Source of the DNA: Pseudomonadota bacterium
GTDB lineage: Bacteria > Pseudomonadota > Gammaproteobacteria > QQUJ01
DNA length: 64,000 nt
Assembly: GCA_008501635.1 (NCBI GenBank)
Contig: QQUJ01000025.1
Location: 32,196-96,195, forward strand
Direction of reading: 5' to 3'
Shown one piece after another: positions 33,582 through 42,988 of the stretch (position 1 is the stretch's first letter; every line of letters begins with the position of its first letter). A program made the position numbers and the translations under genes. A model generated the notes under the pieces. It did not search any database, had not been told where the DNA came from, and saw only the letters and a list, made by a program, of their open reading frames with translations.

Positions 33582-35174
33582 TCAACGAACAGCCAGATCA
33601 GTGGCGAGTCTGCTCGCATTGCGCGCCGCGAGTCCATAGATCGACAACTGCGGATTGGTGCCCACACTGGTCGGGAACAGCGATCCATCGCAGATGCTCA
33701 CGTTATCCAACTGATGATGACGACCAAAAGAATCTGCCACGCCATCTCTCGCGCTGGCCGCCATGCCGCAGCCTCCCATCACATGCGCGCTCACGACGCG
33801 GGCAAGGTTAGGCGTCAGGGGCAGTTCCTGTATACCCCGTTGCACTTCCTTCCAGCTTGCATAGCCTCCCGCCTTCTCATGAACCGGGGTGACCCGCTTT
33901 GCCCCCGCGGCGAACTGGATCTCCGCCATGGCCAACCATGAACGGCGCACGCCTTCCCAGACGAACTCGGTGATCGGATAATCGAGCACCGGTGTGCCGT
34001 CGGATTGCAGGTGGACGGTCCCGCCCGGACTGCCGGGATTGAAACCGTCACGGAGCAGCGCAATCACCACGTGCGTATTGGCGAATCGTTGCATCTGCTG
34101 TGCGTGAGCTGTGCCGAAACCCTGCAGCGTGGTACTGAATAACACGGGGTGCAGAGGCGGCACCTCGAGCTTGAATCCCATGGGGCCCCGCAGCGGAACG
34201 TTGTCGAGAAAGTGATTGCTGTAGACGGACTGTGGCGCGCCCGCGTAACCGTCGACCCTGCCGTCCATCTGCCCCGCCGAGATAGTGGTTGGATGGAGAA
34301 ACGTGCGCTTGCCCAAATGTCCGTGGGGATCGGGCGCATCACTGCGCATCAGCAATGCGGGGGTGCCGAGCGATCCCGCGGCGAGGACGAAATGCTTTGC
34401 GTGTATCCGCACACGATAGGGTAACGGGCGGATCCCCGCCTCCTCCATCGCCAAGCACTCAAGAACCACCGCACGACCACCGCTGAGCACGAGGCGTTCG
34501 GCGCGCAGACGGTGCCATAGTGCGGCGCCGGACGAGAGCGCCGCTGGAATCGTGGTCACCAGCATCGACTGCTTGGCGTTGGTGGGGCAGCCCAGGCCGC
34601 AGTAGCCCAGATTCAGACAACCCTTCACGTTGCGCGGTATGGTCGCGGTGGAGATGCCCAGTTTTTCCGCCCCGCGCCGCAGCAGGTCGTTGTTCTCGTT
34701 CGCGGGCACGCTCCAGGTCTCGATTCCCAGCTGCTGTTCCATGCGTTCGAACCATGGCGCCAACGCATCACCATCGAGATCCGCGAGACCGAATTCGCTC
34801 CGCCAGTAGGCCAATGTCTCGGGAGGCGTGCGAAAGCAACTGGTCCAATTGACCGTGGTGGAACCTCCGACGCAGCGTCCCTGCAGGATATTGATGGCCT
34901 TGTCCCTGGTCTTGCGGGCCGCCGACTCCTGGTAGAGCTGCGGATAGGCATCCGCCTCGCGCATTCTGAATTCACGCGAGCTTTTCAGCGGTCCCTCTTC
35001 GACCAGCAGCACCCGCAAGCCCGAGGCCGCCAGAATCTCTGCCGCTGTCCCGCCTCCCGCGCCGCTGCCGACGATCACAACATCCGCTTCGAGCGTGTGA
35101 TCGGCGGTCAAGGCCGATCCGTTCCGCACCTGCCAGCCCGACCGCAAGCCTGCCGCAACCATATCTTCGGTCAT
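33582..35174 (-). CDS. GMC-family oxidoreductase (LaoA-like long-chain alcohol dehydrogenase)
   Basis: IVGSGAGGG, GRCVGGSTTVN, SAHVMGGC, DGSLFPTSVGTNP; ATGA overlap with the upstream gene. Confidence 0.88.
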   Translation of the reverse strand: MTEDMVAAGLRSGWQVRNGSALTADHTLEADVVIVGSGAGGGTAAEILAASGLRVLLVEEGPLKSSREFRMREADAYPQLYQESAARKTRDKAINILQGRCVGGSTTVNWTSCFRTPPETLAYWRSEFGLADLDGDALAPWFERMEQQLGIETWSVPANENNDLLRRGAEKLGISTATIPRNVKGCLNLGYCGLGCPTNAKQSMLVTTIPAALSSGAALWHRLRAERLVLSGGRAVVLECLAMEEAGIRPLPYRVRIHAKHFVLAAGSLGTPALLMRSDAPDPHGHLGKRTFLHPTTISAGQMDGRVDGYAGAPQSVYSNHFLDNVPLRGPMGFKLEVPPLHPVLFSTTLQGFGTAHAQQMQRFANTHVVIALLRDGFNPGSPGGTVHLQSDGTPVLDYPITEFVWEGVRRSWLAMAEIQFAAGAKRVTPVHEKAGGYASWKEVQRGIQELPLTPNLARVVSAHVMGGCGMAASARDGVADSFGRHHQLDNVSICDGSLFPTSVGTNPQLSIYGLAARNASRLATDLAVR

Positions 35175-35686
35175 GGGGATAACGGGGGCGGGCCAGGATA
35201 GGCGATGGTCGGCCACGATTGCGGGTCACCGTACCAAGCACCCAACACCAGATCGTGCAATGCGGCGTAGGCGCTGCGCAGGAGCGCAAAGCGGCTCATG
35301 CGCCAGCTTTCGAGGAAGGCGGCCACCTGATCCGGAGTTGCGCCGGCCCAGGATGTCCAAATGCCGGCCACAACCGCGCGGGCGGGTGCGAAATTCAATA
35401 GCGCGAACAGCTCGGCAATCTCCTTTTGCGCCTGAGCGGAGAGTCCCGCGACCGCTGTGTTCACGCCCTCGACCGTTGTTGCAATCGCGGCGCGCCGGGC
35501 CTCGCCCGATACGGGTATGACACCGGCCAGCATTACCGGCACGAGTACGGCCACGATCTCGCGTTCACTTACGCCCAACTCCCCCGATTCGCTGGTGGTG
35601 TGGCGCAACCCATAGTAAGCACCGGCGCCAGCAAGCGCTGCGCTGCCCAGCAGGCCAGCCTTGAGGAAGGTGCGCCGTGTGACCAT
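35171..35686 (-). CDS. Tat-exported partner protein (LaoB-like)
   Basis: TRRTFLK twin-arginine signal; between ALDH and GMC genes with overlapping stop/start codons. Confidence 0.8.
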   Translation of the reverse strand: MVTRRTFLKAGLLGSAALAGAGAYYGLRHTTSESGELGVSEREIVAVLVPVMLAGVIPVSGEARRAAIATTVEGVNTAVAGLSAQAQKEIAELFALLNFAPARAVVAGIWTSWAGATPDQVAAFLESWRMSRFALLRSAYAALHDLVLGAWYGDPQSWPTIAYPGPPPLSP

Positions 35687-37113
35687 CAGCGTAGCAGCAC
35701 AGCCATGAGCCGCTCGAACAGCGTGCCATACGGTGGCTTGAACAGACCTACACCGCTGATGCGTGACTGAAAGAAAACGGACTTCTTTTTGGAGAACGTT
35801 TCAAACCCTTCGTAGCCGTGGTAGTGCCCCTTGCCGCTCTCACCGACTCCGCCGAACGGCAGATTGTCCTGGGCGATGTGCAGGATGGTGTCGTTGATCG
35901 TCACGCCGCCGGAGATGGTCTCTGTCAGCACCTTGTCGATCCGCTTGCGGTCGTTATCGAAATAGTAGAGCGCCAGCGGTTTCGGCCTTGTGTTGACGTA
36001 GCGAATCGCCTCGTCAAGCTCGCGATAGGTGACGACAGGCAACAGCGGGCCGAAAATCTCCTCCTGCATGATGCGCATACTGTCCCTGGCATTGATGACA
36101 GCCAGTGGCGGAATACGCCGCGTCGATGAGTCCGGCGCTACCTCAAGCGAGGTCAGCGGGACAATATCGGCACCTTGGTCCCTGGCCTCCTCGGCCAATT
36201 CCAGCAGACGCTGAAAATGGCGCTCGTTGATGATCGAGGAGTAATCGGGCGTTTGCATGATGTCCGGGTAGCATCGCGCTACAGTACGCTTGGCGGCGGT
36301 CACAAAATCTTGCGTCCGGTTCTCGGGAATCAACACATAATCAGGGGCAATGCAGGTCTGTCCCGCGTTCATCGTCTTGCCGACCATGACACGTTCGGCA
36401 AATCGCGCCATCGAAAAATCCACCCCGAGTATCGCCGGTGATTTGCCGCCCAGTTCCAGCGTGATGGGAGTCAGGTTCTCCGCCGCAGCACGCATGACGC
36501 TGTACCCCACCCGGGTCGAGCCGGTGAACAGAAGATGTCCGAACGGTTGGCGTGAAAAGGCCTCTGCCACCTGACTGTCACCCTGCACCACAATCACGCT
36601 GTCCCTGGCAAAGTAGTTGGCGGCCAACCCGGCAACCAGCGCGGCGGTCGCGGGCGCGAACTCAGACATCTTGAGCATTACGCGATTACCCGCGGCCAGC
36701 GCCGCCGTCAACGGTCCGATCGACAACAGGATCGGATAGTTCCACGGGGCGATGACTCCCACCACGCCCAGCGGCTGATGCATGACCCGCGCACGGCCTG
36801 GTTGAAACCACAGCGTTACCGGGCGGCGCTCCGGCCGCATCCATTGTTTGAGATGACGTCGCGCGTGCTTGACGGCCTCGAGGCTTGGGAACAGCTCCAG
36901 CAATTGCGTCTCATGCGCTGAGCGATGACCGAAATCCTGGTCGACCGCGGCGATGAACGCGTCCGCATTCTCGCGCAGCAATCGTTCCAGAGCAGCCAGC
37001 TGGTTATCGCGGTCGCGCCACGAGGGATAGGGATCGCACTCGGCCGCACGCTGCAAGCAGGCGAACACCGGGCTCAGTGCCGCATCTTCATCGCTCGCTG
37101 TTCCCGGATCCAT
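35686..37113 (-). CDS. Coniferyl-aldehyde-dehydrogenase-family ALDH (LaoC-like)
   Basis: APWNYP, FTGSTRVG, LELGGKSP, NAGQTCIAPDY, EEIFGP. Confidence 0.92.
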   Translation of the reverse strand: MDPGTASDEDAALSPVFACLQRAAECDPYPSWRDRDNQLAALERLLRENADAFIAAVDQDFGHRSAHETQLLELFPSLEAVKHARRHLKQWMRPERRPVTLWFQPGRARVMHQPLGVVGVIAPWNYPILLSIGPLTAALAAGNRVMLKMSEFAPATAALVAGLAANYFARDSVIVVQGDSQVAEAFSRQPFGHLLFTGSTRVGYSVMRAAAENLTPITLELGGKSPAILGVDFSMARFAERVMVGKTMNAGQTCIAPDYVLIPENRTQDFVTAAKRTVARCYPDIMQTPDYSSIINERHFQRLLELAEEARDQGADIVPLTSLEVAPDSSTRRIPPLAVINARDSMRIMQEEIFGPLLPVVTYRELDEAIRYVNTRPKPLALYYFDNDRKRIDKVLTETISGGVTINDTILHIAQDNLPFGGVGESGKGHYHGYEGFETFSKKKSVFFQSRISGVGLFKPPYGTLFERLMAVLLR

Positions 37114-37291
37114 GTGATTTCCCGCTGCTGCTTTGTAGCCCTAGGCACTATACAGATCCTGGCGCAGCTTGTGTTATCCCCGGGTGACACACTGCCACTG
37201 TGCACCAGCGGGCGTCATCAAACTGCAGACCTCACAACGACCGACGACAATGCGGTTGCCCGTGGTCAACGGTTTAAACCGGGAAGCACAG

Positions 37292-37450
37292 TCACCCCGA
37301 TCCGAGGCCCGCCGGCTGGATGGTGAACACTATCGCCAGAGTAACCGATAGCACGACGGCCAAAGCAATCAGCAACGGTTTCCACTTCCGTTTCCGACGT
37401 GCTGGTGTTCGGAACGGAACAATCACCGAATGGGCTCTGCCAACGTCCAT
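37292..37450 (-). CDS. Putative 52-aa single-pass membrane protein; absent from the ORF track
   Basis: Hand translation MDVGRAHSVIVPFRTPARRKRKWKPLLIALAVVLSVTLAIVFTIQPAGLGSG*; basic patch then a hydrophobic helix; starts 5 nt after the upstream stop. Confidence 0.45.
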   Translation of the reverse strand: MDVGRAHSVIVPFRTPARRKRKWKPLLIALAVVLSVTLAIVFTIQPAGLGSG

Positions 37451-37455
37451 TGGAT

Positions 37456-37689
37456 TCAAGGTTTTTTCGGCAACGATTTCTTGCGGCGCCGCTGACCCTT
37501 CTTGGACTTGGAGGGAACTTCGGGCTGCGGATTGAGCGCCTTCAGGTCATGCTGGTGTTGCTGCCGCTTCTGGCGCGCCCGCGAGGGCACCTCTGGTTGC
37601 GGGTTGAGCGCCCAGACCGTGCCACTTGCGCAGAGACCGGCACCCAGTCCCAAACAGGCGATCAGTAGTTTGCGACGTTGCGGATTCAT
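37456..37689 (-). CDS. Small secreted basic peptide with duplicated ALNPQPEVPS motif
   Basis: QRRKLL Tat-like signal ending VWA, two identical 10-aa motifs encoded by synonymously diverged codons, GAGGAG RBS. Confidence 0.75.
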   Translation of the reverse strand: MNPQRRKLLIACLGLGAGLCASGTVWALNPQPEVPSRARQKRQQHQHDLKALNPQPEVPSKSKKGQRRRKKSLPKKP

Positions 37690-37871
37690 TCTCTCTCTCC
37701 TCGGGAATCACCACCGTATTGACGGTGTTCAGGCCCTGAGTCGTGGGCTTGAAGCGGACGGTTCAACGGGCAACTGCCCGGGTTCGGCGACCGTGGATGG
37801 CGGAACGCACACTCTGCGACCGTTATCAGTTATTCTCATGTTCCTGATTAAGCCAACGCCCTGAGCATCCG

Positions 37872-39299
37872 ATGAGTCTGCCCAGCCAATTTGCCGACGC
37901 GCTCGCCAGCCTGGTGGGCGTCACCGGCATCATCACCGATACCGAAGCGCTCGCACCCTACGTCAACGAAGAACGCGGTAGATTTCGTGGCCAGGCTGCC
38001 GCGCTTGTGCGCCCGGCGGATACGCATCAGGTCGCCGAGGTCGTCAGGCTCTGTGCCGCTCACGGGATTCCCATCACGCCCCAAGGTGGCAACACCGGTC
38101 TGTGCGGTGGCGGTGTACCCCACGGCGGCATCATCCTCAGCCTCGCGCGCATGAACCGCGTACGCACGATCGATCCGATCAATTACACCGTCACGGTGGA
38201 GGCCGGCGCGATCCTGGCCGAGATTCAACAGGCGGCGGATCGCGAAGGTTGCCTCTTTCCGCTGTCGCTCGGGGCGGAGGGTTCCTGTCAAATCGGCGGC
38301 AATCTGGCGACCAACGCGGGTGGCATCAACGTGCTGCGCTATGGCAATGCCCGCGACCTGGTATTGGGTCTGGAAGTGGTGCTGCCCGACGGTCGTATCT
38401 GGGACGGATTGCGCGCACTGAGCAAAGACAACACCGGCTACGCGCTAAAGCATCTGTTCGTCGGCTCCGAAGGAACGCTGGGGATCATCACCGCGGCGGT
38501 GCTGAAACTCTTCCCCAAGCCGCTCGATGTACAGACGGCACTGTGCGGACTCGACAGCGTGCAGGCCGCCACTCACCTGCTGTCGCTCGCAAGGGCGCGC
38601 TCGGGCGATGCGGTGACAGGCTTTGAGTTGATCTCGAATTTTGCGATGGAGATCACCACCCGGCATGTGCCTGACTGCGTAAACCCGCTGGCGCAAACCC
38701 ATCCCTGGTACGTCCTGATCGAACTCTCCTCCTCACGGCCCGATGCGGGGTTGCGGTCGGTCTTCGAAGGTTTGCTGGAAGAGGCCTATGCCAAGGGGGT
38801 GATTGCAGATGCCGCCGTCGCCGAATCCCTGGAACAGGCACGGCGATTCTGGCGCTTGCGCGAGGCGATTCCCGAGGCACAGAAGCGCGAGGGCAGTTCC
38901 ATCAAGCACGATGTAGCGGTGCCGGTATCCCGGGTGGCGGAGTTTATCGAGCGGGGCATCGCCGCCGTTACGCAAACCTTCCCTGGCGTGCGTCCCTGCC
39001 CTTTTGGCCATCTTGGTGACGGCAACATCCACTTCAACATCACTCAGCCGGTGGGGATGGATAAAAGCACCTATCTGGCGCAGTGGGAGGCGATGAACCG
39101 TGTGGTACACGATCTGGTTGCCGAAATGGATGGCTCGATCTCCGCCGAGCACGGTGTGGGACTGTTGAAGGTCGACGAGATACGCCGCTACAAGAGCCCG
39201 GTTGAACTCGATCTCATGGAGAATCTGAAACGCGCTTTGGACCCCGACAATCTGATGAATCCCGGCAAGGTGGTGCGCTTGTCCGACCTGCGCAAATAG
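37872..39299 (+). CDS. FAD-binding oxidoreductase (D-2-hydroxyacid dehydrogenase family)
   Basis: PQGGNTGLCGG, GGNLATNAGG, FGHLGDGNIH, SISAEHGVG, MNPGKV. Confidence 0.92.
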   Translation: MSLPSQFADALASLVGVTGIITDTEALAPYVNEERGRFRGQAAALVRPADTHQVAEVVRLCAAHGIPITPQGGNTGLCGGGVPHGGIILSLARMNRVRTIDPINYTVTVEAGAILAEIQQAADREGCLFPLSLGAEGSCQIGGNLATNAGGINVLRYGNARDLVLGLEVVLPDGRIWDGLRALSKDNTGYALKHLFVGSEGTLGIITAAVLKLFPKPLDVQTALCGLDSVQAATHLLSLARARSGDAVTGFELISNFAMEITTRHVPDCVNPLAQTHPWYVLIELSSSRPDAGLRSVFEGLLEEAYAKGVIADAAVAESLEQARRFWRLREAIPEAQKREGSSIKHDVAVPVSRVAEFIERGIAAVTQTFPGVRPCPFGHLGDGNIHFNITQPVGMDKSTYLAQWEAMNRVVHDLVAEMDGSISAEHGVGLLKVDEIRRYKSPVELDLMENLKRALDPDNLMNPGKVVRLSDLRK

Positions 39300-39445: not shown

Positions 39446-42400
39446 ATGTCATCGCAGCCCGACTACGCCGAGCTTCATGCGCTCACCAATTTCACCTTTC
39501 TGCGCGGTGCCTCGCATCCCGAGGAGCTGGTGGAACGGGCGGTGGCTGAGGGCTATACCGCCCTGGCGATCACCGACGAATGCACCGTAGCCGGGGTGGT
39601 GCGGGCCCATCTCGCCGCGCGCGGAACACCCTTGAGACTTATCGTCGGCAGCGAATTGCACCTGGCCGATGGGCCGCGTCTGGTGCTGCTGGCGACCAAC
39701 CGCGCCGGCTACGGGGCACTCTGCGCCCTGATCACCCGCGGCCGGCGGGCGACAACGAAAGGCAGCTACCACCTGACCCGCGCCGATGTAGAGGCATTCG
39801 ATCTGGATCGCTGCCTGGCCCTGCTGCTGCCCGCCGAGGAGCCTGCGGTGGAATCCGCCCGCTGGGTGTCCGGGCTGTTTCCCGACCGCGCGTGGCTGGC
39901 GGTGGAGCTGCACCACGGCTGCGACGACGCGGCGCGCCTCGCTCTGTTGCGCGAACTGGGGCGCATGAGCAGTCTGCCCCTGGTGGCAGCGGGCGATGTG
40001 CATATGCACCGCCGCGCCCGCCGCCCGCTGCAGGATGTGCTCACCGCCATACGCCTCAACCGCCCCGTGGCCCAATGCGGCTATGCGCTATTCCCCAACG
40101 CTGAGCGCCACCTGCGCCGCCGTGAGGTGCTGGCGCGGATCTACCCGCCGGAATTGCTGGAAGAGACGCTGCGCATTGCCGCGCGCTGCCAGTTTGTGCT
40201 CGATGAGCTGCGTTACGAATATCCCGACGAATTGGTACCCACAGGCACCACCCCCGCCGTGCATCTGCGCCAGTTGACCGAAGCGGGCCTGCGCCAACGC
40301 TGGCCGCAGGGCGAGTCCGCCAAGGTGCGCCAGCTCATCGAACACGAGCTGGCGCTGATCGGCGAACTGCGCTACGAACCCTACTTTCTCACCGTCCACG
40401 ACATCGTCCGCTTCGCCCGCGCCCGCGGCATCCTCTGCCAGGGGCGCGGTTCGGCGGCCAATTCGGCGGTCTGCTACGCCCTGGGGATCACCGAGGTGGA
40501 CCCCTCGCGCATGGAGATGCTCTTCGAGCGTTTCCTCTCCCGGGAGCGCGACGAACCGCCGGATATCGACGTGGATTTCGAGCACGAACGGCGCGAAGAG
40601 GTGATCCAGTACCTCTACGCCAAATACGGCCGCGAGCGGGCGGCGCTGGCCGCCACCGTCATCACTTATCGGCCCAAGAGCGCGGTGCGCGACGTGGGCA
40701 AGGCGCTGGGGCTGGATGGGGCGCAGATCGAGCGCCTGGCCAAGGCGCTCAAGGGGTGGGTGAGCCGCAAAGAGATCGGCGAGCGCCTCACCGAGGCCGG
40801 GTTCGACCCCGACAACCCGGTGATCGCGCGCCTGCTGTGGCTGGTCAGCGAACTGCTGGGCTTCCCGCGCCATCTCTCCCAGCATGTCGGCGGTTTCGTC
40901 ATCGCCCGGGACTCCTTGCACGAACTGGTGCCCATAGAAAACGCCACCATGCCCGAACGCACGGTGATCCAGTGGGACAAGGATGATCTTGAGGCCCTGG
41001 GCCTGCTCAAGGTCGATGTACTGGGGCTGGGAATGCTGAGCGCCATCCGCAAGGCGCTGGATCTGATCAACGGTTATCGGAGTCGGATGTCCGCTCGTAG
41101 GAGCGACTTCAGTCGCGATGTGCGGCCTGATCCGATCGTGACATTCGCGGTTGAAACCGCTCCTACGAGCACCAGTAACGGGGAAAACCGTGAACGGGAC
41201 TCCGCCCGGACATCAGGGCCGATCAACGGCCATCGGGGTCGAATACCCCCCAGTAGGAGCGACTTCAGTCGCGATGCACACCCCGATCCGACCGCGACGT
41301 TCGCGGTTGAAACTGCTCCTACGGGCACCGGTAGCGGGGAAACCCGCCCGCCGCTCTCCCTGGCCACCATCCCCCCCGAAGACCCGGCCGTCTACGACCT
41401 GATCTGCGCCGGCGACACGGTGGGCGTGTTCCAGATCGAGTCCCGGGCCCAGATGGCCATGCTGCCGCGCCTCAAGCCGCGCACCTTCTACGATCTGGTC
41501 ATCGAAGTGGCCATCGTCCGTCCCGGCCCCATCCAGGGGGACATGGTCCATCCCTACCTGCGCCGCCGTCAGGGTATCGAACCGGTCACCTACCCCAGCG
41601 AGGCGGTACGCGGCGTGCTGGAGCGCACTCTGGGGGTGCCCATCTTCCAGGAACAGGTGATCAAACTGGCGATGGTGGCGGCGGGTTTCTCCGCCGGTGA
41701 GGCCGACGCCCTGCGTCGCGCCATGGCGGCGTGGCGGCGGCGCGGCGGGCTGGAACCCTTCGAGCAGCGACTGATCACCGGCATGCGTCAACGCGGCTAC
41801 TCCGAGACCTTCGCCCGTCAGATCTACCAGCAGATCTGCGGCTTCGGCGAGTACGGCTTCCCCGAAAGCCACGCCGCCAGCTTTGCGCTGCTCGCCTACG
41901 CCTCGGCCTGGCTCAAGCGTCACGAACCCGCCGCCTTCTGTGCGGCCCTGATCAACAGCCTGCCCATGGGTTTCTACGCCCCCGCGCAGCTGGTGCAGGA
42001 CGCTCAGCGCCACGGGGTCGAGGTGCGGACCGTGGATGTGCGTCACAGCAATTGGGATTGCACGCTGGAGCCTCCTGGGGCCCCTATCTCGCGTCAGGAC
42101 ACCAGGGTGCCAGGAACGCGGAAAACGCTGGCATCAGCACCTGTTTTTGCCCCACGAGACGACAACGGGCAGAGCATTCTGACGACCGTTCCCCCTCACC
42201 CCAGCCCTCTCCCCAGGGAGAGGGAGCCCAACTGCATCCCCAGTACCCTCTCCCCCCGGGAGAGGGTCAGGGTGAGGGCCCAACCCACCCTGCGCCTCGG
42301 CCTGCGGCAGGTAAAGGGCCTTTCGCGCGAAGGCGCGGAGCGCCTTGTCGCCGTACGGGCCGAACAACCCTTCGCCGATGTGGCCGATCTGGTCCGCCGC

Positions 42401-42988
42401 GCTCGCCTCGACAAGCGGGACCGCAATGCCCTCGCGGCGGCCGGGGCACTGGCGGGACTGGCCGGTAACCGCCACCAGGCGCGCTGGCAGACGCTGGGCA
42501 TTGAGGCGGCGACACCCCTTGGGGTGGAGAACACCATCGCTGAAGCCACCCCCATGCTGGCACCCCCTAGCGAAGGTGCAGCGATTGCGGCGGACTACCG
42601 CAGCCTGGGACTCACACTGGAGCGCCACCCCTTGGCGCTGTTGCGTGAGCAACTAACCACACAGCATCTCGTCACCGCCGAGGCAATCAATACTTTGCCC
42701 CACGGCCGCCGGGCGCGCATGGCAGGCCTGGTGGTCACCCGGCAACGACCCGGCACCGCCAGCGGCGTGGTCTTCGTCACCCTGGAGGATGAGACCGGTG
42801 TGGTGAATGTGGTGGTGTGGGGGCAGCTGGCCGAGCGCCACCGCCGTGTGCTGCTGGAATCGCAGCTACTGGCAGTGAGCGGTGAGGTGCAGACCGAAGA
42901 TGGCGTCACGCACCTCATCGCCCACCGTTTGGAGAACTACAACCCGCTACTGGGCGGCCTGGAAACCCGATCGCGGGATTTCCACTGA
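39446..42988 (+). CDS. dnaE2: Error-prone DNA polymerase DnaE2 (ImuC) with two large in-frame repeat-derived insertions
   Basis: PHP domain, [36 protein letters not shown] fold, C-terminal SRDFH. Confidence 0.96.
41097..41166. repeat. GTAG-family REP doublet (REPIN) 1 inside dnaE2
   Basis: GTAGGAGCGACTTCAGTCGCGA (41097-41118) inverted to TCGCGGTTGAAACCGCTCCTAC (41145-41166). Confidence 0.88.
41253..41322. repeat. GTAG-family REP doublet (REPIN) 2 inside dnaE2
   Basis: GTAGGAGCGACTTCAGTCGCGA (41253-41274) and TCGCGGTTGAAACTGCTCCTAC (41301-41322), 156 bp after copy 1. Confidence 0.88.
42193..42278. repeat. CCCTCTCCC/GGGAGAGGG palindromic doublet inside dnaE2
   Basis: CCCTCACCCCAGCCCTCTCCC-CA-GGGAGAGGG ... 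CCCTCTCCC-CCC-GGGAGAGGGTCAGGGTGAGGG. Confidence 0.85.

What the first reader, a model, noticed from the sequence alone, without database searches (positions are those of the whole stretch)
37292..37689. Secreted mini-protein with twin ALNPQPEVPS motifs plus a coupled membrane peptide
Seen: the 77-aa ORF has a Tat-like signal (QRRKLL...VWA) whose predicted cleavage would expose the first motif. The two 10-aa copies are identical, yet 6 of 10 codons differ at synonymous sites (37582-37611 vs 37510-37539), which points to protein-level selection. Spacers are highly basic or His/Gln-rich. An unlisted 52-aa single-TM ORF starts 5 nt after the stop. Inference: a repeated-core peptide (RiPP-like precursor, signal peptide or periplasmic binding motif) with a partner membrane protein.
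Basis: partly seen in the sequence, partly recalled or inferred. Interest (0 to 1): 0.62.

Follow-up and report, generated by a model that had tools for sequence, protein, structure and literature searches.

The report
Exported twin-motif peptide, ECF-sigma controlled
This is a real, conserved gene for a small exported, unstructured protein that carries two copies of a nearly invariant nine-residue motif and a strongly basic tail, apparently switched on by a dedicated stress-type (ECF) sigma factor; the family has never been described and what the motif binds is unknown.

Summary
The 77-aa ORF, its two ALNPQPEVPS copies and the 6 of 10 synonymous codon differences are there, and so is the 52-aa one-helix membrane ORF 5 nt downstream.

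The mini-protein belongs to a rare, unannotated family: 90 representatives among 1.84 billion proteins, found in 12 of 185,579 species genomes. Members have a signal peptide, 1-5 near-invariant (K)ALNPQPEVPS(K) motifs, variable spacers and a Lys/Arg tail. AlphaFold predicts no fold beyond the signal helix.

A conserved ECF-type promoter (TGAACC-N16-CGACT) lies 49 nt upstream, here and in relatives. The same motif precedes the genome's own ECF sigma / anti-sigma / S8-protease module and about ten other secreted-protein genes.

In relatives the gene sits inside an island of CARDB-like secreted proteins. In some, the motif is fused to those proteins.

The membrane ORF is real (10 synonymous against 2 non-synonymous changes) but confined to this lineage.

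My best reading is an ECF-regulated envelope adaptor with a multivalent docking motif and a polybasic anchor. A RiPP precursor is not supported. The biochemical function remains inferred, and no expression data could be obtained.

The parts
37739..37765 (-). ECF-sigma-type promoter TGAACCGTCCGCTTCAAGCCCACGACT (-35 TGAACC, 16-nt spacer, -10 CGACT). It ends 49 nt upstream of the ATG.
   Evidence: The same motif, at the same spacing, precedes mini-protein genes in L017, L019, L030, L031, L042, L046, L056, L057 and L067-71. Genome-wide there are 16 hits at N16 against 1-7 at other spacings, and 2 of the 16 lie inside the ECF module on contig C15. No sigma-70-like promoter was found in 37050-37950.
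37697..37702 (-). Shine-Dalgarno sequence GAGGAG
   Evidence: Read directly from the sequence. It is conserved in L019.
37456..37689 (-). Mini-protein gene (77 aa plus stop)
   Evidence: There are 48 homologues and 90 representatives. No Pfam or NCBIfam family matches. AlphaFold2 predicts only helix 3-20 and coil elsewhere.
37609..37689 (-). Signal peptide, residues 1-27 (n-region QRRK, h-region LLIACLGLGAGLCA, VWA cleavage site)
   Evidence: In most family members whose first motif follows the signal peptide directly, an A-x-A site immediately precedes the first LNPQPEVPS. The RR motif is present in 15 of 44 members.
37582..37611 (-). Motif copy 1, ALNPQPEVPS
37510..37539 (-). Motif copy 2, ALNPQPEVPS (6 synonymous codon differences from copy 1)
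37459..37509 (-). Polybasic C-terminal tail KSKKGQRRRKKSLPKKP
   Evidence: A Lys/Arg-rich tail follows the last motif throughout the small-protein subfamily. The mature 50-aa peptide has 15 K/R against 3 D/E.
37292..37450 (-). 52-aa single-pass membrane protein gene (MDVGRAHSVIVPFRTPARRKRKWKPLLIALAVVLSVTLAIVFTIQPAGLGSG), 5 nt after the mini-protein stop
   Evidence: The frame is intact in three lineages. Against L019 there are 10 synonymous and 2 non-synonymous changes. Against L067-69 there are 7 and 4. The TM core is invariant. It is absent downstream of all more distant homologues and is never called as a gene.
37316..37378 (-). Transmembrane core of the 52-aa protein (residues 25-45)
   Evidence: Hydropathy maximum 2.9. 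No amino-acid change in L019 or L067-71.

Best explanation
The 77-aa ORF is a genuine gene for a small exported, intrinsically disordered envelope protein. After signal-peptide cleavage at VWA|L, the 50-residue product starts with the first LNPQPEVPS motif. It carries a second copy after a variable basic spacer and ends in a Lys/Arg tail, for a net charge of about +12.

The gene is most probably transcribed from a dedicated ECF-sigma promoter (TGAACC-N16-CGACT). That would make it one member of a regulon controlled by the module on contig C15 of the same genome: a 392-aa protein, an ECF sigma, a zf-HC2 anti-sigma and an S8 protease.

Proposed mechanism (inferred). The invariant motif is a short linear docking peptide, probably in extended or polyproline-II form. 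Its PEVPSK segment fits PxxPx[KR]. It would be recognised by another extracytoplasmic component of the regulon: a CARDB-like beta-sandwich protein, or the protease/sensor module. Copy number gives multivalency, and the polybasic tail would hold the peptide on anionic envelope polymers. The motif would then be a portable adaptor or tether, either fused to its client (Woeseiaceae proteins, L047) or made as a free mini-protein, as here.

The downstream 52-aa membrane protein is a real, translationally coupled gene, but it is an add-on of this lineage only. The two genes together form a roughly 620-nt cassette that is absent from the same site in a congeneric genome.

My confidence in the separate steps:
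- real exported protein: about 0.9
- ECF-regulon membership: about 0.75
- docking/tether mechanism: about 0.3
For: Real gene and family:
- Searches give the homologues. The motif is nearly invariant while spacers, copy number (1-5) and signal peptides vary.
- In close relatives all 4-5 amino-acid changes lie outside the motifs.

Disorder: AlphaFold2 with 44 sequences gives only the signal helix.

ECF control:
- The promoter motif is conserved at fixed spacing upstream of mini-protein genes in at least 9 independent loci.
- Own genome: 16 hits at N16 against 1-7 at other spacings. Two hits lie in the C15 module, one before the anti-sigma/S8 genes and one before the 392-aa/sigma genes. Most of the others lie 25-80 nt upstream of signal-peptide ORFs.
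- The motif recurs inside the islands of relatives.
- Orthologous sigma (50-54% identity), the 392-aa marker and the S8 protease occur in the four other gammaproteobacterial genomes among the twelve motif-bearing species genomes. These are the genomes whose loci carry this promoter. The marker was found only in the window's own genus among 40 relatives.
- In two of those four genomes the module lies within 7 kb of the mini-protein.

Adaptor idea, from two natural fusions:
- Woeseiaceae proteins of 1206 and 1267 aa carry 2-5 motif copies internally. They are homologous to the ~875-aa protein that neighbours the mini-protein elsewhere (E 4e-41).
- L047 fuses the motif and K tail to a CARDB-like domain. 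That domain is the gene directly downstream of the mini-protein in L057, L031 and L030.

Cassette: in same-genus genome G001 the intergenic gap is about 118 nt, against about 740 nt here.
Against: - No binding partner was identified.
- No partner family is universal. The S8/ECF module is missing from Woeseiaceae and Burkholderiales genomes that have the motif. The ~875-aa family is missing from this genome, yet present in G001, which lacks the motif.
- In the large proteins the motif region could simply be an interdomain linker.
- The promoter assignment rests on sequence pattern and co-occurrence only. The genome has four other ECF-like sigmas.
- AlphaFold cannot show docking for a single chain.
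Confidence: 0.4

Rival explanations
1. Multi-copy pro-peptide. The precursor is cut next to each motif, by the regulon's S8 subtilase or another protease. This would release several identical diffusible peptides of about 10-25 residues. These could act as a self-made signal for the ECF anti-sigma/protease switch, or as another extracellular signal.
For: - The layout resembles known multi-copy precursors: a signal peptide, then tandem identical units separated by basic spacers.
- The first unit starts exactly at the signal-peptidase site, and internal units follow a conserved P-K-A.
- An S8 protease is co-regulated, and in several relatives it is adjacent. Its catalytic domain weakly resembles peptide-maturing subtilases such as QhpE and PatA/G, though below their cut-offs.
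- In many loci the mini-protein is the first gene after the dedicated regulator.
Against: - Many motif-bearing genomes lack this S8 protease.
- The motif also lies inside large multidomain proteins.
- The conserved part is the motif itself, not a recognisable dibasic cleavage site.
- Family members with a single copy exist (L056, L057).
- No peptide data are available.
Confidence: 0.2
2. Structural or matrix protein. A polycationic, disordered coat or matrix component binds an anionic extracellular or periplasmic material, such as exopolymer, eDNA, or mineral or sulfur deposits. The other low-complexity secreted proteins of the regulon would be further components.
For: - The mature peptide has a net charge of about +12 and is predicted disordered.
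- Several other candidate regulon members are secreted proline-rich or repeat proteins: C12 113 aa, C14 189 aa, C28 286 aa, C29 546 aa.
- The family is confined to sediment and groundwater sulfur-cycle Gamma- and Betaproteobacteria.
Against: A purely structural role does not explain why a nine-residue, partly acidic motif is almost invariant while the basic parts drift. No target material is known.
Confidence: 0.15
3. Sec-exported cationic proline-rich antimicrobial peptide, with the 52-aa membrane protein as its immunity factor (a bacteriocin-like pair).
For: - This is a small cationic proline-rich secreted peptide followed at 5 nt by a small membrane protein under purifying selection.
- The pair behaves as an insertion/deletion cassette.
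Against: - The membrane ORF is absent from all other family members.
- Selection acts on the neutral-to-acidic motif, not on the cationic parts.
- The family is embedded in non-toxin islands and fused to large structural proteins.
- PADLOC and bacteriocin-specific libraries were not searched, so this is not formally excluded.
Confidence: 0.08
4. RiPP precursor with two core peptides.
For: A repeated identical core in a short ORF.
Against: - No modifying enzyme is adjacent here or conserved near homologues.
- The N-terminus is a classical signal peptide.
- The motif has no Cys and only one Ser. That Ser is Gly at the corresponding position in most of the related NPQPEPP-repeat proteins inspected.
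Confidence: 0.04

Closest known systems
ECF sigma / zf-HC2 (ZAS) anti-sigma modules with autoregulated promoters and small envelope regulons (general class, e.g. Bacillus subtilis SigW-RsiW)
   Same: It has a group-IV sigma (Pfam Sigma70_r2, r4_2 and ECF) and a membrane zf-HC2 anti-sigma. The promoter has AAC in the -35 and CG(A/T) in the -10, and it is also found inside the sigma module itself. The regulon consists of exported proteins.
   Different: The adjacent protease is a TIG/CARDB-bearing S8 subtilase, not a known site-1 protease. The regulon consists of unannotated proteins. No described ECF group was matched here.
Wider class of small secreted proteins with [LF]NPQPEPP[GS] repeats (uncharacterised)
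   Same: They share the NPQP-E-x-P core, a signal peptide with the first repeat often right at the cleavage site, 2-6 copies and variable spacers. At least 997 protein clusters exist across Myxococcota, Thermodesulfobacteriota, Pseudomonadota and Acidobacteriota.
   Different: That class has PPG or PPS instead of VPS. It mostly lacks the Lys tail and has no conserved gene neighbourhood. It also has no Pfam or NCBIfam model and no paper, so it gives no functional lead.
Eukaryotic multi-copy secreted peptide precursors cut by S8/kexin proteases (yeast alpha-factor, insect apidaecin, diatom silaffin precursors); comparison from general knowledge
   Same: They have a signal peptide followed by tandem identical units separated by basic spacers, and a subtilase in the same regulatory unit.
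   Different: Cleavage is not shown here. The motif also occurs inside large proteins, and the spacers are not conserved processing sites. This is an analogy only, not homology.
Proline-rich short linear motifs bound by SH3-type or similar modules (class II PxxPx[KR]); comparison from general knowledge
   Same: P-E-V-P-S-K fits PxxPxK. The motif lies in disordered sequence, is repeated, and is invariant under synonymous drift.
   Different: No SH3-like or other reader domain was identified in the regulon. The position after the second Pro is Gly or Ser in the wider class.
RiPP precursor peptides
   Same: A short ORF with a repeated 'core'.
   Different: It has a signal peptide instead of a leader, no maturase, and few modifiable residues.

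Membership tests
RiPP precursor | A dedicated modifying enzyme or enzymes encoded next to the precursor and conserved with it | tested here: not met
   The window neighbours are an aldehyde dehydrogenase and an FAD oxidase. Both are syntenic in G001, which lacks the cassette. Homologous loci show no common enzyme apart from an S8 protease in a subset.
RiPP precursor | An N-terminal leader peptide recognised by the maturase rather than a Sec/Tat signal peptide | tested here: not met
   The N-terminus has an n-region, a hydrophobic h-region and an A-x-A site directly before the first motif, as in most family members whose first motif follows the signal peptide. AlphaFold2 predicts helix 3-20.
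Tat substrate | Twin-arginine consensus (S/T-R-R-x-F-L-K) in the n-region | tested here: inconclusive
   The window protein has QRRKLL. Fifteen of 44 family members have an RR motif and the rest are Sec-like. Pfam TAT_signal did not match. No dedicated Tat predictor was available.
ECF-sigma regulon member | A promoter with the ECF-type -35 (AAC) and -10 (CGT/CGA) at fixed spacing, shared with the sigma's own operon | tested here: met
   TGAACC-N16-CGACT lies at 37739-37765. The same pattern precedes the anti-sigma/S8 and 392-aa/sigma genes on C15. The spacing control gives 16 hits against 1-7.
ECF-sigma regulon member | Promoter motif and cognate sigma co-occur across genomes | tested here: met
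   A sigma orthologue (E below 1e-50) is present in G041, G043, G044 and G052, whose mini-protein loci carry the motif. Burkholderiales and Woeseiaceae genomes have only distant ECFs, and their loci lack the motif.
ECF-sigma regulon member | Sigma-dependent transcription start | not testable with these tools
Sec-dependent bacteriocin plus immunity pair | The immunity gene travels with the peptide gene across the family | tested here: not met
   The 52-aa membrane ORF occurs only in the window lineage (window, L019, L067-71). All other homologues have a different downstream gene.
TrbK entry-exclusion protein (TIGR04361) | Score at or above the curated cut-off of 50 bits | tested here: not met
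   The score is 17.2 bits, E 0.005, over the signal-peptide region only.
PEP-CTERM / exosortase substrate | A PEP motif followed by a C-terminal transmembrane helix and an Arg cluster in the same protein | tested here: not met
   There is no hydrophobic segment after the motifs, and the tail is purely basic.
LNPQPEVPS mini-protein family (defined here) | A signal peptide, at least one (A)LNPQPEVPS motif and a Lys/Arg-rich tail, in a protein of 70-110 aa | tested here: met
   Alignment A1 and the profile search.

The most novel reading that the evidence does not exclude
NPQP-type repeats would be an unrecognised, widespread class of bacterial extracytoplasmic short linear motifs. In this subfamily the mini-protein would be the self-made peptide ligand of its own ECF switch. 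It would be exported under sigma control, then bound or cut by the anti-sigma/S8-protease sensor to give positive feedback or cell-to-cell signalling. That would be a peptide-based ECF signalling circuit in Gram-negative bacteria.
Probability: 0.12. Interest if true: 0.8.

Novelty: new variant of a known kind. Interest (0 to 1): 0.52.

Why it matters
The inducing signals and physiological outputs of most ECF sigma factors are unknown. Here a tiny, easily synthesised peptide with a near-invariant nine-residue motif is tied to one ECF / anti-sigma / subtilase module in three ways: a shared promoter, gene-island context and natural fusions. That makes a concrete and testable entry point, namely asking which envelope protein reads LNPQPEVPS.

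The work also brings to light a much larger set of NPQPEPP-repeat secreted proteins, at least 997 clusters, with no family model and no literature. If the motif proves to be a docking or processing signal, it would annotate thousands of 'hypothetical' small proteins. If it is only a linker or a structural filler, the finding is a modest new family.

Tried and rejected
- Pfam and NCBIfam scans of both small ORFs gave nothing meaningful. The weak hits were TrbK at 17 bits and Asp5 and DUF4179 on the TM helix.
- A full-text literature search for the motif strings returned 0 papers. A search for ECF + subtilisin + CARDB returned nothing relevant.
- A search of earlier scan notes by sequence found no look-alike.
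- I looked for a second copy of the motif in the genome. There is only this gene.
- I looked for the ~875-aa and 217-247-aa island partners in this genome. Both are absent.
- I tested whether the membrane ORF is a family-wide partner. It is not.
- I tested for a sigma-70 promoter or an intrinsic terminator in 37050-37950. Neither was found.
- I folded the ~875-aa island protein to get a function. Only its C-terminal CARDB domain matches the PDB. The confidently modelled region at residues 200-586 has no match.
- I checked three neighbourhoods of the wider NPQPEPP class for a shared enzyme. None was found.
- I tested whether the 221-aa gene before the anti-sigma gene in L024 is the sigma. It is not. 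The sigma orthologue lies with the 392-aa gene elsewhere in that genome.
- The alignment of the window intergenic region against G001 was uninformative beyond the size difference.

Full report
**1. What is in the sequence**

On the minus strand, 37456-37689 encodes a 77-aa protein. It has four parts:
- an N-terminal signal peptide, MNPQRRKLLIACLGLGAGLCASGTVWA
- the motif LNPQPEVPS directly after the VWA site
- a basic His/Gln-rich spacer, then a second ALNPQPEVPS
- the tail KSKKGQRRRKKSLPKKP

The two 10-aa copies (37582-37611 and 37510-37539) differ at 6 of 10 codons, all synonymously. A GAGGAG ribosome-binding site precedes the ATG.

Five nucleotides after the stop, an ATG at 37450 opens a 52-aa ORF. 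It has a basic N-terminal segment (RRKRKWK) followed by one hydrophobic helix.

**2. Both small ORFs are real genes**

The mini-protein has 48 homologues in the 5.8-billion-protein collection, all unnamed. A profile search finds 90 representatives among 1.84 billion proteins, 27 of them at E below 1e-10.

In the alignment the block (K)ALNPQPEVPS(K) is nearly invariant. Signal peptides, spacers and copy number (1-5) vary, and a Lys/Arg tail follows the last copy.

Two close relatives, about 94% identical at the DNA level, were compared (L019 and L067-71). They show 7 synonymous and 4-5 non-synonymous changes in the mini-protein, and all the amino-acid changes lie outside the motifs.

The 52-aa ORF keeps its frame and length in both relatives. 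It shows 10 synonymous against 2 non-synonymous changes (L019) and 7 against 4 (L067-69). The membrane core does not change at all. For comparison, the flanking FAD oxidase gives 34 against 17. So the 52-aa ORF is coding, although no public annotation calls it.

More distant homologues have no such ORF downstream. The next gene there is usually a signal-peptide protein, or in Burkholderiales a conserved soluble protein of about 58 aa. The membrane peptide is therefore a partner in this lineage only.

**3. Physical nature of the protein**

AlphaFold2 with the 44-sequence alignment predicts only the signal helix (residues 3-20). The rest is coil with pLDDT 56-70. The mature 50-mer has 15 Lys/Arg, 3 Asp/Glu and 8 Pro.

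A twin-arginine-like n-region occurs in 15 of 44 members, and the others look Sec-type. Pfam TAT_signal does not match. The export route is therefore open. A requirement for a folded or cofactor-bearing Tat cargo is unlikely.

**4. Regulation**

No sigma-70-like promoter is found in the 180-nt upstream region.

Instead, TGAACCGTCCGCTTCAAGCCCACGACT lies at 37765-37739 and ends 49 nt before the ATG. The same pattern, TGAACC(G)-N16-CGAC(T), lies at the same spacing upstream of mini-protein genes in L017, L019, L030, L031, L042, L046, L056, L057 and L067-71. The chance expectation for ten fixed bases in about 110 nt is roughly 1e-4 per locus.

From general knowledge of ECF sigma factors, AAC in the -35 and CGT or CGA in the -10 is the canonical ECF promoter signature.

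In this genome the strict pattern occurs 16 times at N16, against 1-7 times at any other spacing from N10 to N23.
- Two of the 16 hits lie in one 4-kb module on contig C15. One is 39 nt before the zf-HC2 anti-sigma gene, which is followed by an S8 subtilase with a TIG domain. The other is 201 nt before a 392-aa gene that is followed by the ECF sigma gene.
- Most of the remaining hits lie 25-80 nt upstream of ORFs with signal peptides, several of them proline-rich or repetitive.
- None of the other four ECF-like sigma genes has a hit in its own module.

Across genomes, the sigma orthologue (50-54% identity), the 392-aa marker and the S8 protease are present in G041, G043, G044 and G052. These are the other gammaproteobacterial genomes among the twelve motif-bearing species genomes, and their mini-protein loci carry this promoter. 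The 392-aa marker was found only in the window's own genus among 40 relatives. In G041 and G043 the module lies within 7 kb of the mini-protein.

The betaproteobacterial members lack this sigma and this promoter. They have instead a BTAD + AAA_16 regulator directly upstream, with TGTAACG heptads at 11- or 22-nt phasing in between. That arrangement is typical of SARP-type activator sites (general knowledge).

In both lineages, then, the mini-protein is under a dedicated regulator.

**5. Genomic context in relatives**

In Sulfuricaulis-like, Ectothiorhodospiraceae, Sedimenticola and uncultured gamma- and betaproteobacterial loci, the mini-protein sits in an island of secreted proteins. The island holds:
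- CARDB-like proteins of 318-400 aa
- proteins of 214-247 aa with no family
- a protein of about 875 aa with a C-terminal CARDB domain
- often the anti-sigma/S8 pair

ECF-type promoters recur before several island genes.

Two natural fusions tie the motif to these proteins:
- In Woeseiaceae, 2-5 copies of NPSLNPQPEVPS[AS][RK] lie inside proteins of 570-1267 aa. The two largest are homologous to the ~875-aa island protein (26% identity over 646 aa, E 4e-41).
- In L047, two motifs and the Lys tail are fused to a CARDB-like domain. That domain is the gene directly downstream of the mini-protein in L057, L031 and L030.

The ~875-aa protein could be modelled well: 365 residues have pLDDT of 90 or more. 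Only its CARDB domain matches the PDB, so the island's function stays unknown.

**6. The situation in this genome**

The genome has one motif gene. It has the ECF/S8 module on C15. One weak homologue of an island protein lies behind the same promoter type (C29 208 aa against the L017 241-aa protein). The ~875-aa and 217-247-aa partners are absent.

The congeneric genome G001 has the ECF module and a 955-aa relative of the large protein, but no motif gene. At the syntenic site between the aldehyde dehydrogenase and the FAD oxidase it has about 118 nt, against about 740 nt here.

The mini-protein and the membrane ORF are thus a roughly 620-nt cassette gained or lost as a unit. No single partner family is universal across motif-bearing genomes.

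**7. Interpretation**

These points are shown by the analysis:
- It is a conserved exported disordered protein.
- Selection is focused on a 9-10-residue motif.
- Copy number and spacers vary.
- A dedicated ECF-type promoter is shared with one sigma / anti-sigma / S8 module.
- The gene sits in an island of beta-sandwich secreted proteins, and the motif is fused to some of them.

The following is inferred. The motif would be a short linear docking element read by an extracytoplasmic component of the regulon. The polybasic tail would anchor it to anionic envelope material. The free mini-protein would be a stand-alone version of a tail that other lineages attach to their client proteins.

The main rival is a multi-copy pro-peptide cut by the S8 protease, possibly feeding back on the ECF switch. 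I cannot separate the two without peptide data. A matrix or coat role and an antimicrobial-plus-immunity pair are less likely. A RiPP precursor is not supported.

**8. Comparison with what is known**

No Pfam or NCBIfam model matches the mini-protein. No paper contains the motif.

The profile search reveals a much larger related class of small secreted proteins with [LF]NPQPEPP[GS] repeats. It comprises at least 997 clusters from several phyla, all annotated as hypothetical. It has no family model either, and no conserved neighbourhood.

Earlier notes from this scan describe other small secreted proline-rich repeat proteins next to ECF modules in unrelated genomes. They match the theme, but I did not test them and they are not evidence here.

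**9. Verdict**

This is a real and undescribed family with an unusually sharp motif and a well-supported regulatory assignment, but no demonstrated function. I rate it as a new variant of a known kind, namely an ECF-regulon envelope protein carrying a repeated short linear motif, with moderate interest.

Noticed in passing
own genome contig C15:12.5-18.7 kb (locus L040 3474-9745), outside the window: A five-gene module reads: a 666-aa OMP-beta-barrel-like protein, a 392-aa unknown protein, an ECF sigma, a zf-HC2 anti-sigma, and an S8 subtilase with a TIG domain. It contains two TGAACC-N16-CGACT promoters. The 392-aa / sigma / S8 part is found in G001, G041, G043 and G044, and in split form in G052.
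   Followed up: partly
own genome, 13 further sites (e.g. C12:61396, C14:269208, C28:73120, C28:18102, C29:22203, C29:65353, C29:67032, C30:531681): These are candidate members of the same ECF regulon. The strict promoter motif lies 25-80 nt upstream of ORFs with signal peptides, several of which have their own proline-rich repeats (RIKPG, KPQI, RFELNFIAxPR).
   Followed up: partly
loci L018, L020, L029, L032, L041, L044 (Burkholderiales relatives), 60-110 nt upstream of the mini-protein gene: TGTAACG heptads lie at 11- or 22-nt phasing between a 908-aa BTAD + AAA_16 regulator gene and the mini-protein gene. This looks like a SARP-type activator site replacing the ECF promoter. A conserved soluble ORF of about 58 aa follows the mini-protein in this lineage.
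   Followed up: no
L017:5453-8080 and homologues (alignment A5): The ~875-aa island protein has a confidently modelled, mainly helical, Cys-rich region (residues 200-586, pLDDT above 90) with no match in the PDB. Only 18 homologues exist in 5.8 billion proteins.
   Followed up: partly
window 33582-37113 (-): Three co-directional genes lie here: an aldehyde dehydrogenase (475 aa), a 171-aa protein with a weak, sub-threshold TAT_signal match, and a GMC oxidoreductase (544 aa). They may form an operon. The layout resembles membrane-bound gluconate-2-dehydrogenase-type enzymes. The genes are syntenic in G001 and independent of the small-gene cassette.
   Followed up: no
window 39446-42988 (+), about 41065-41346 and 42070-42290: The DnaE2 ORF contains in-frame repeated peptide insertions (SDFSRD...[12 protein letters not shown] twice, and a PLPREREPN...[10 protein letters not shown] segment). 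Earlier notes from this scan already explain them as REP and BoxC repeats.
   Followed up: no
proteins P0052-P0099: There is a large uncharacterised class of small secreted proteins with [LF]NPQPEPP[GS] repeats in many phyla. One hit is annotated in a fungus (Vanrija pseudolonga).
   Followed up: partly
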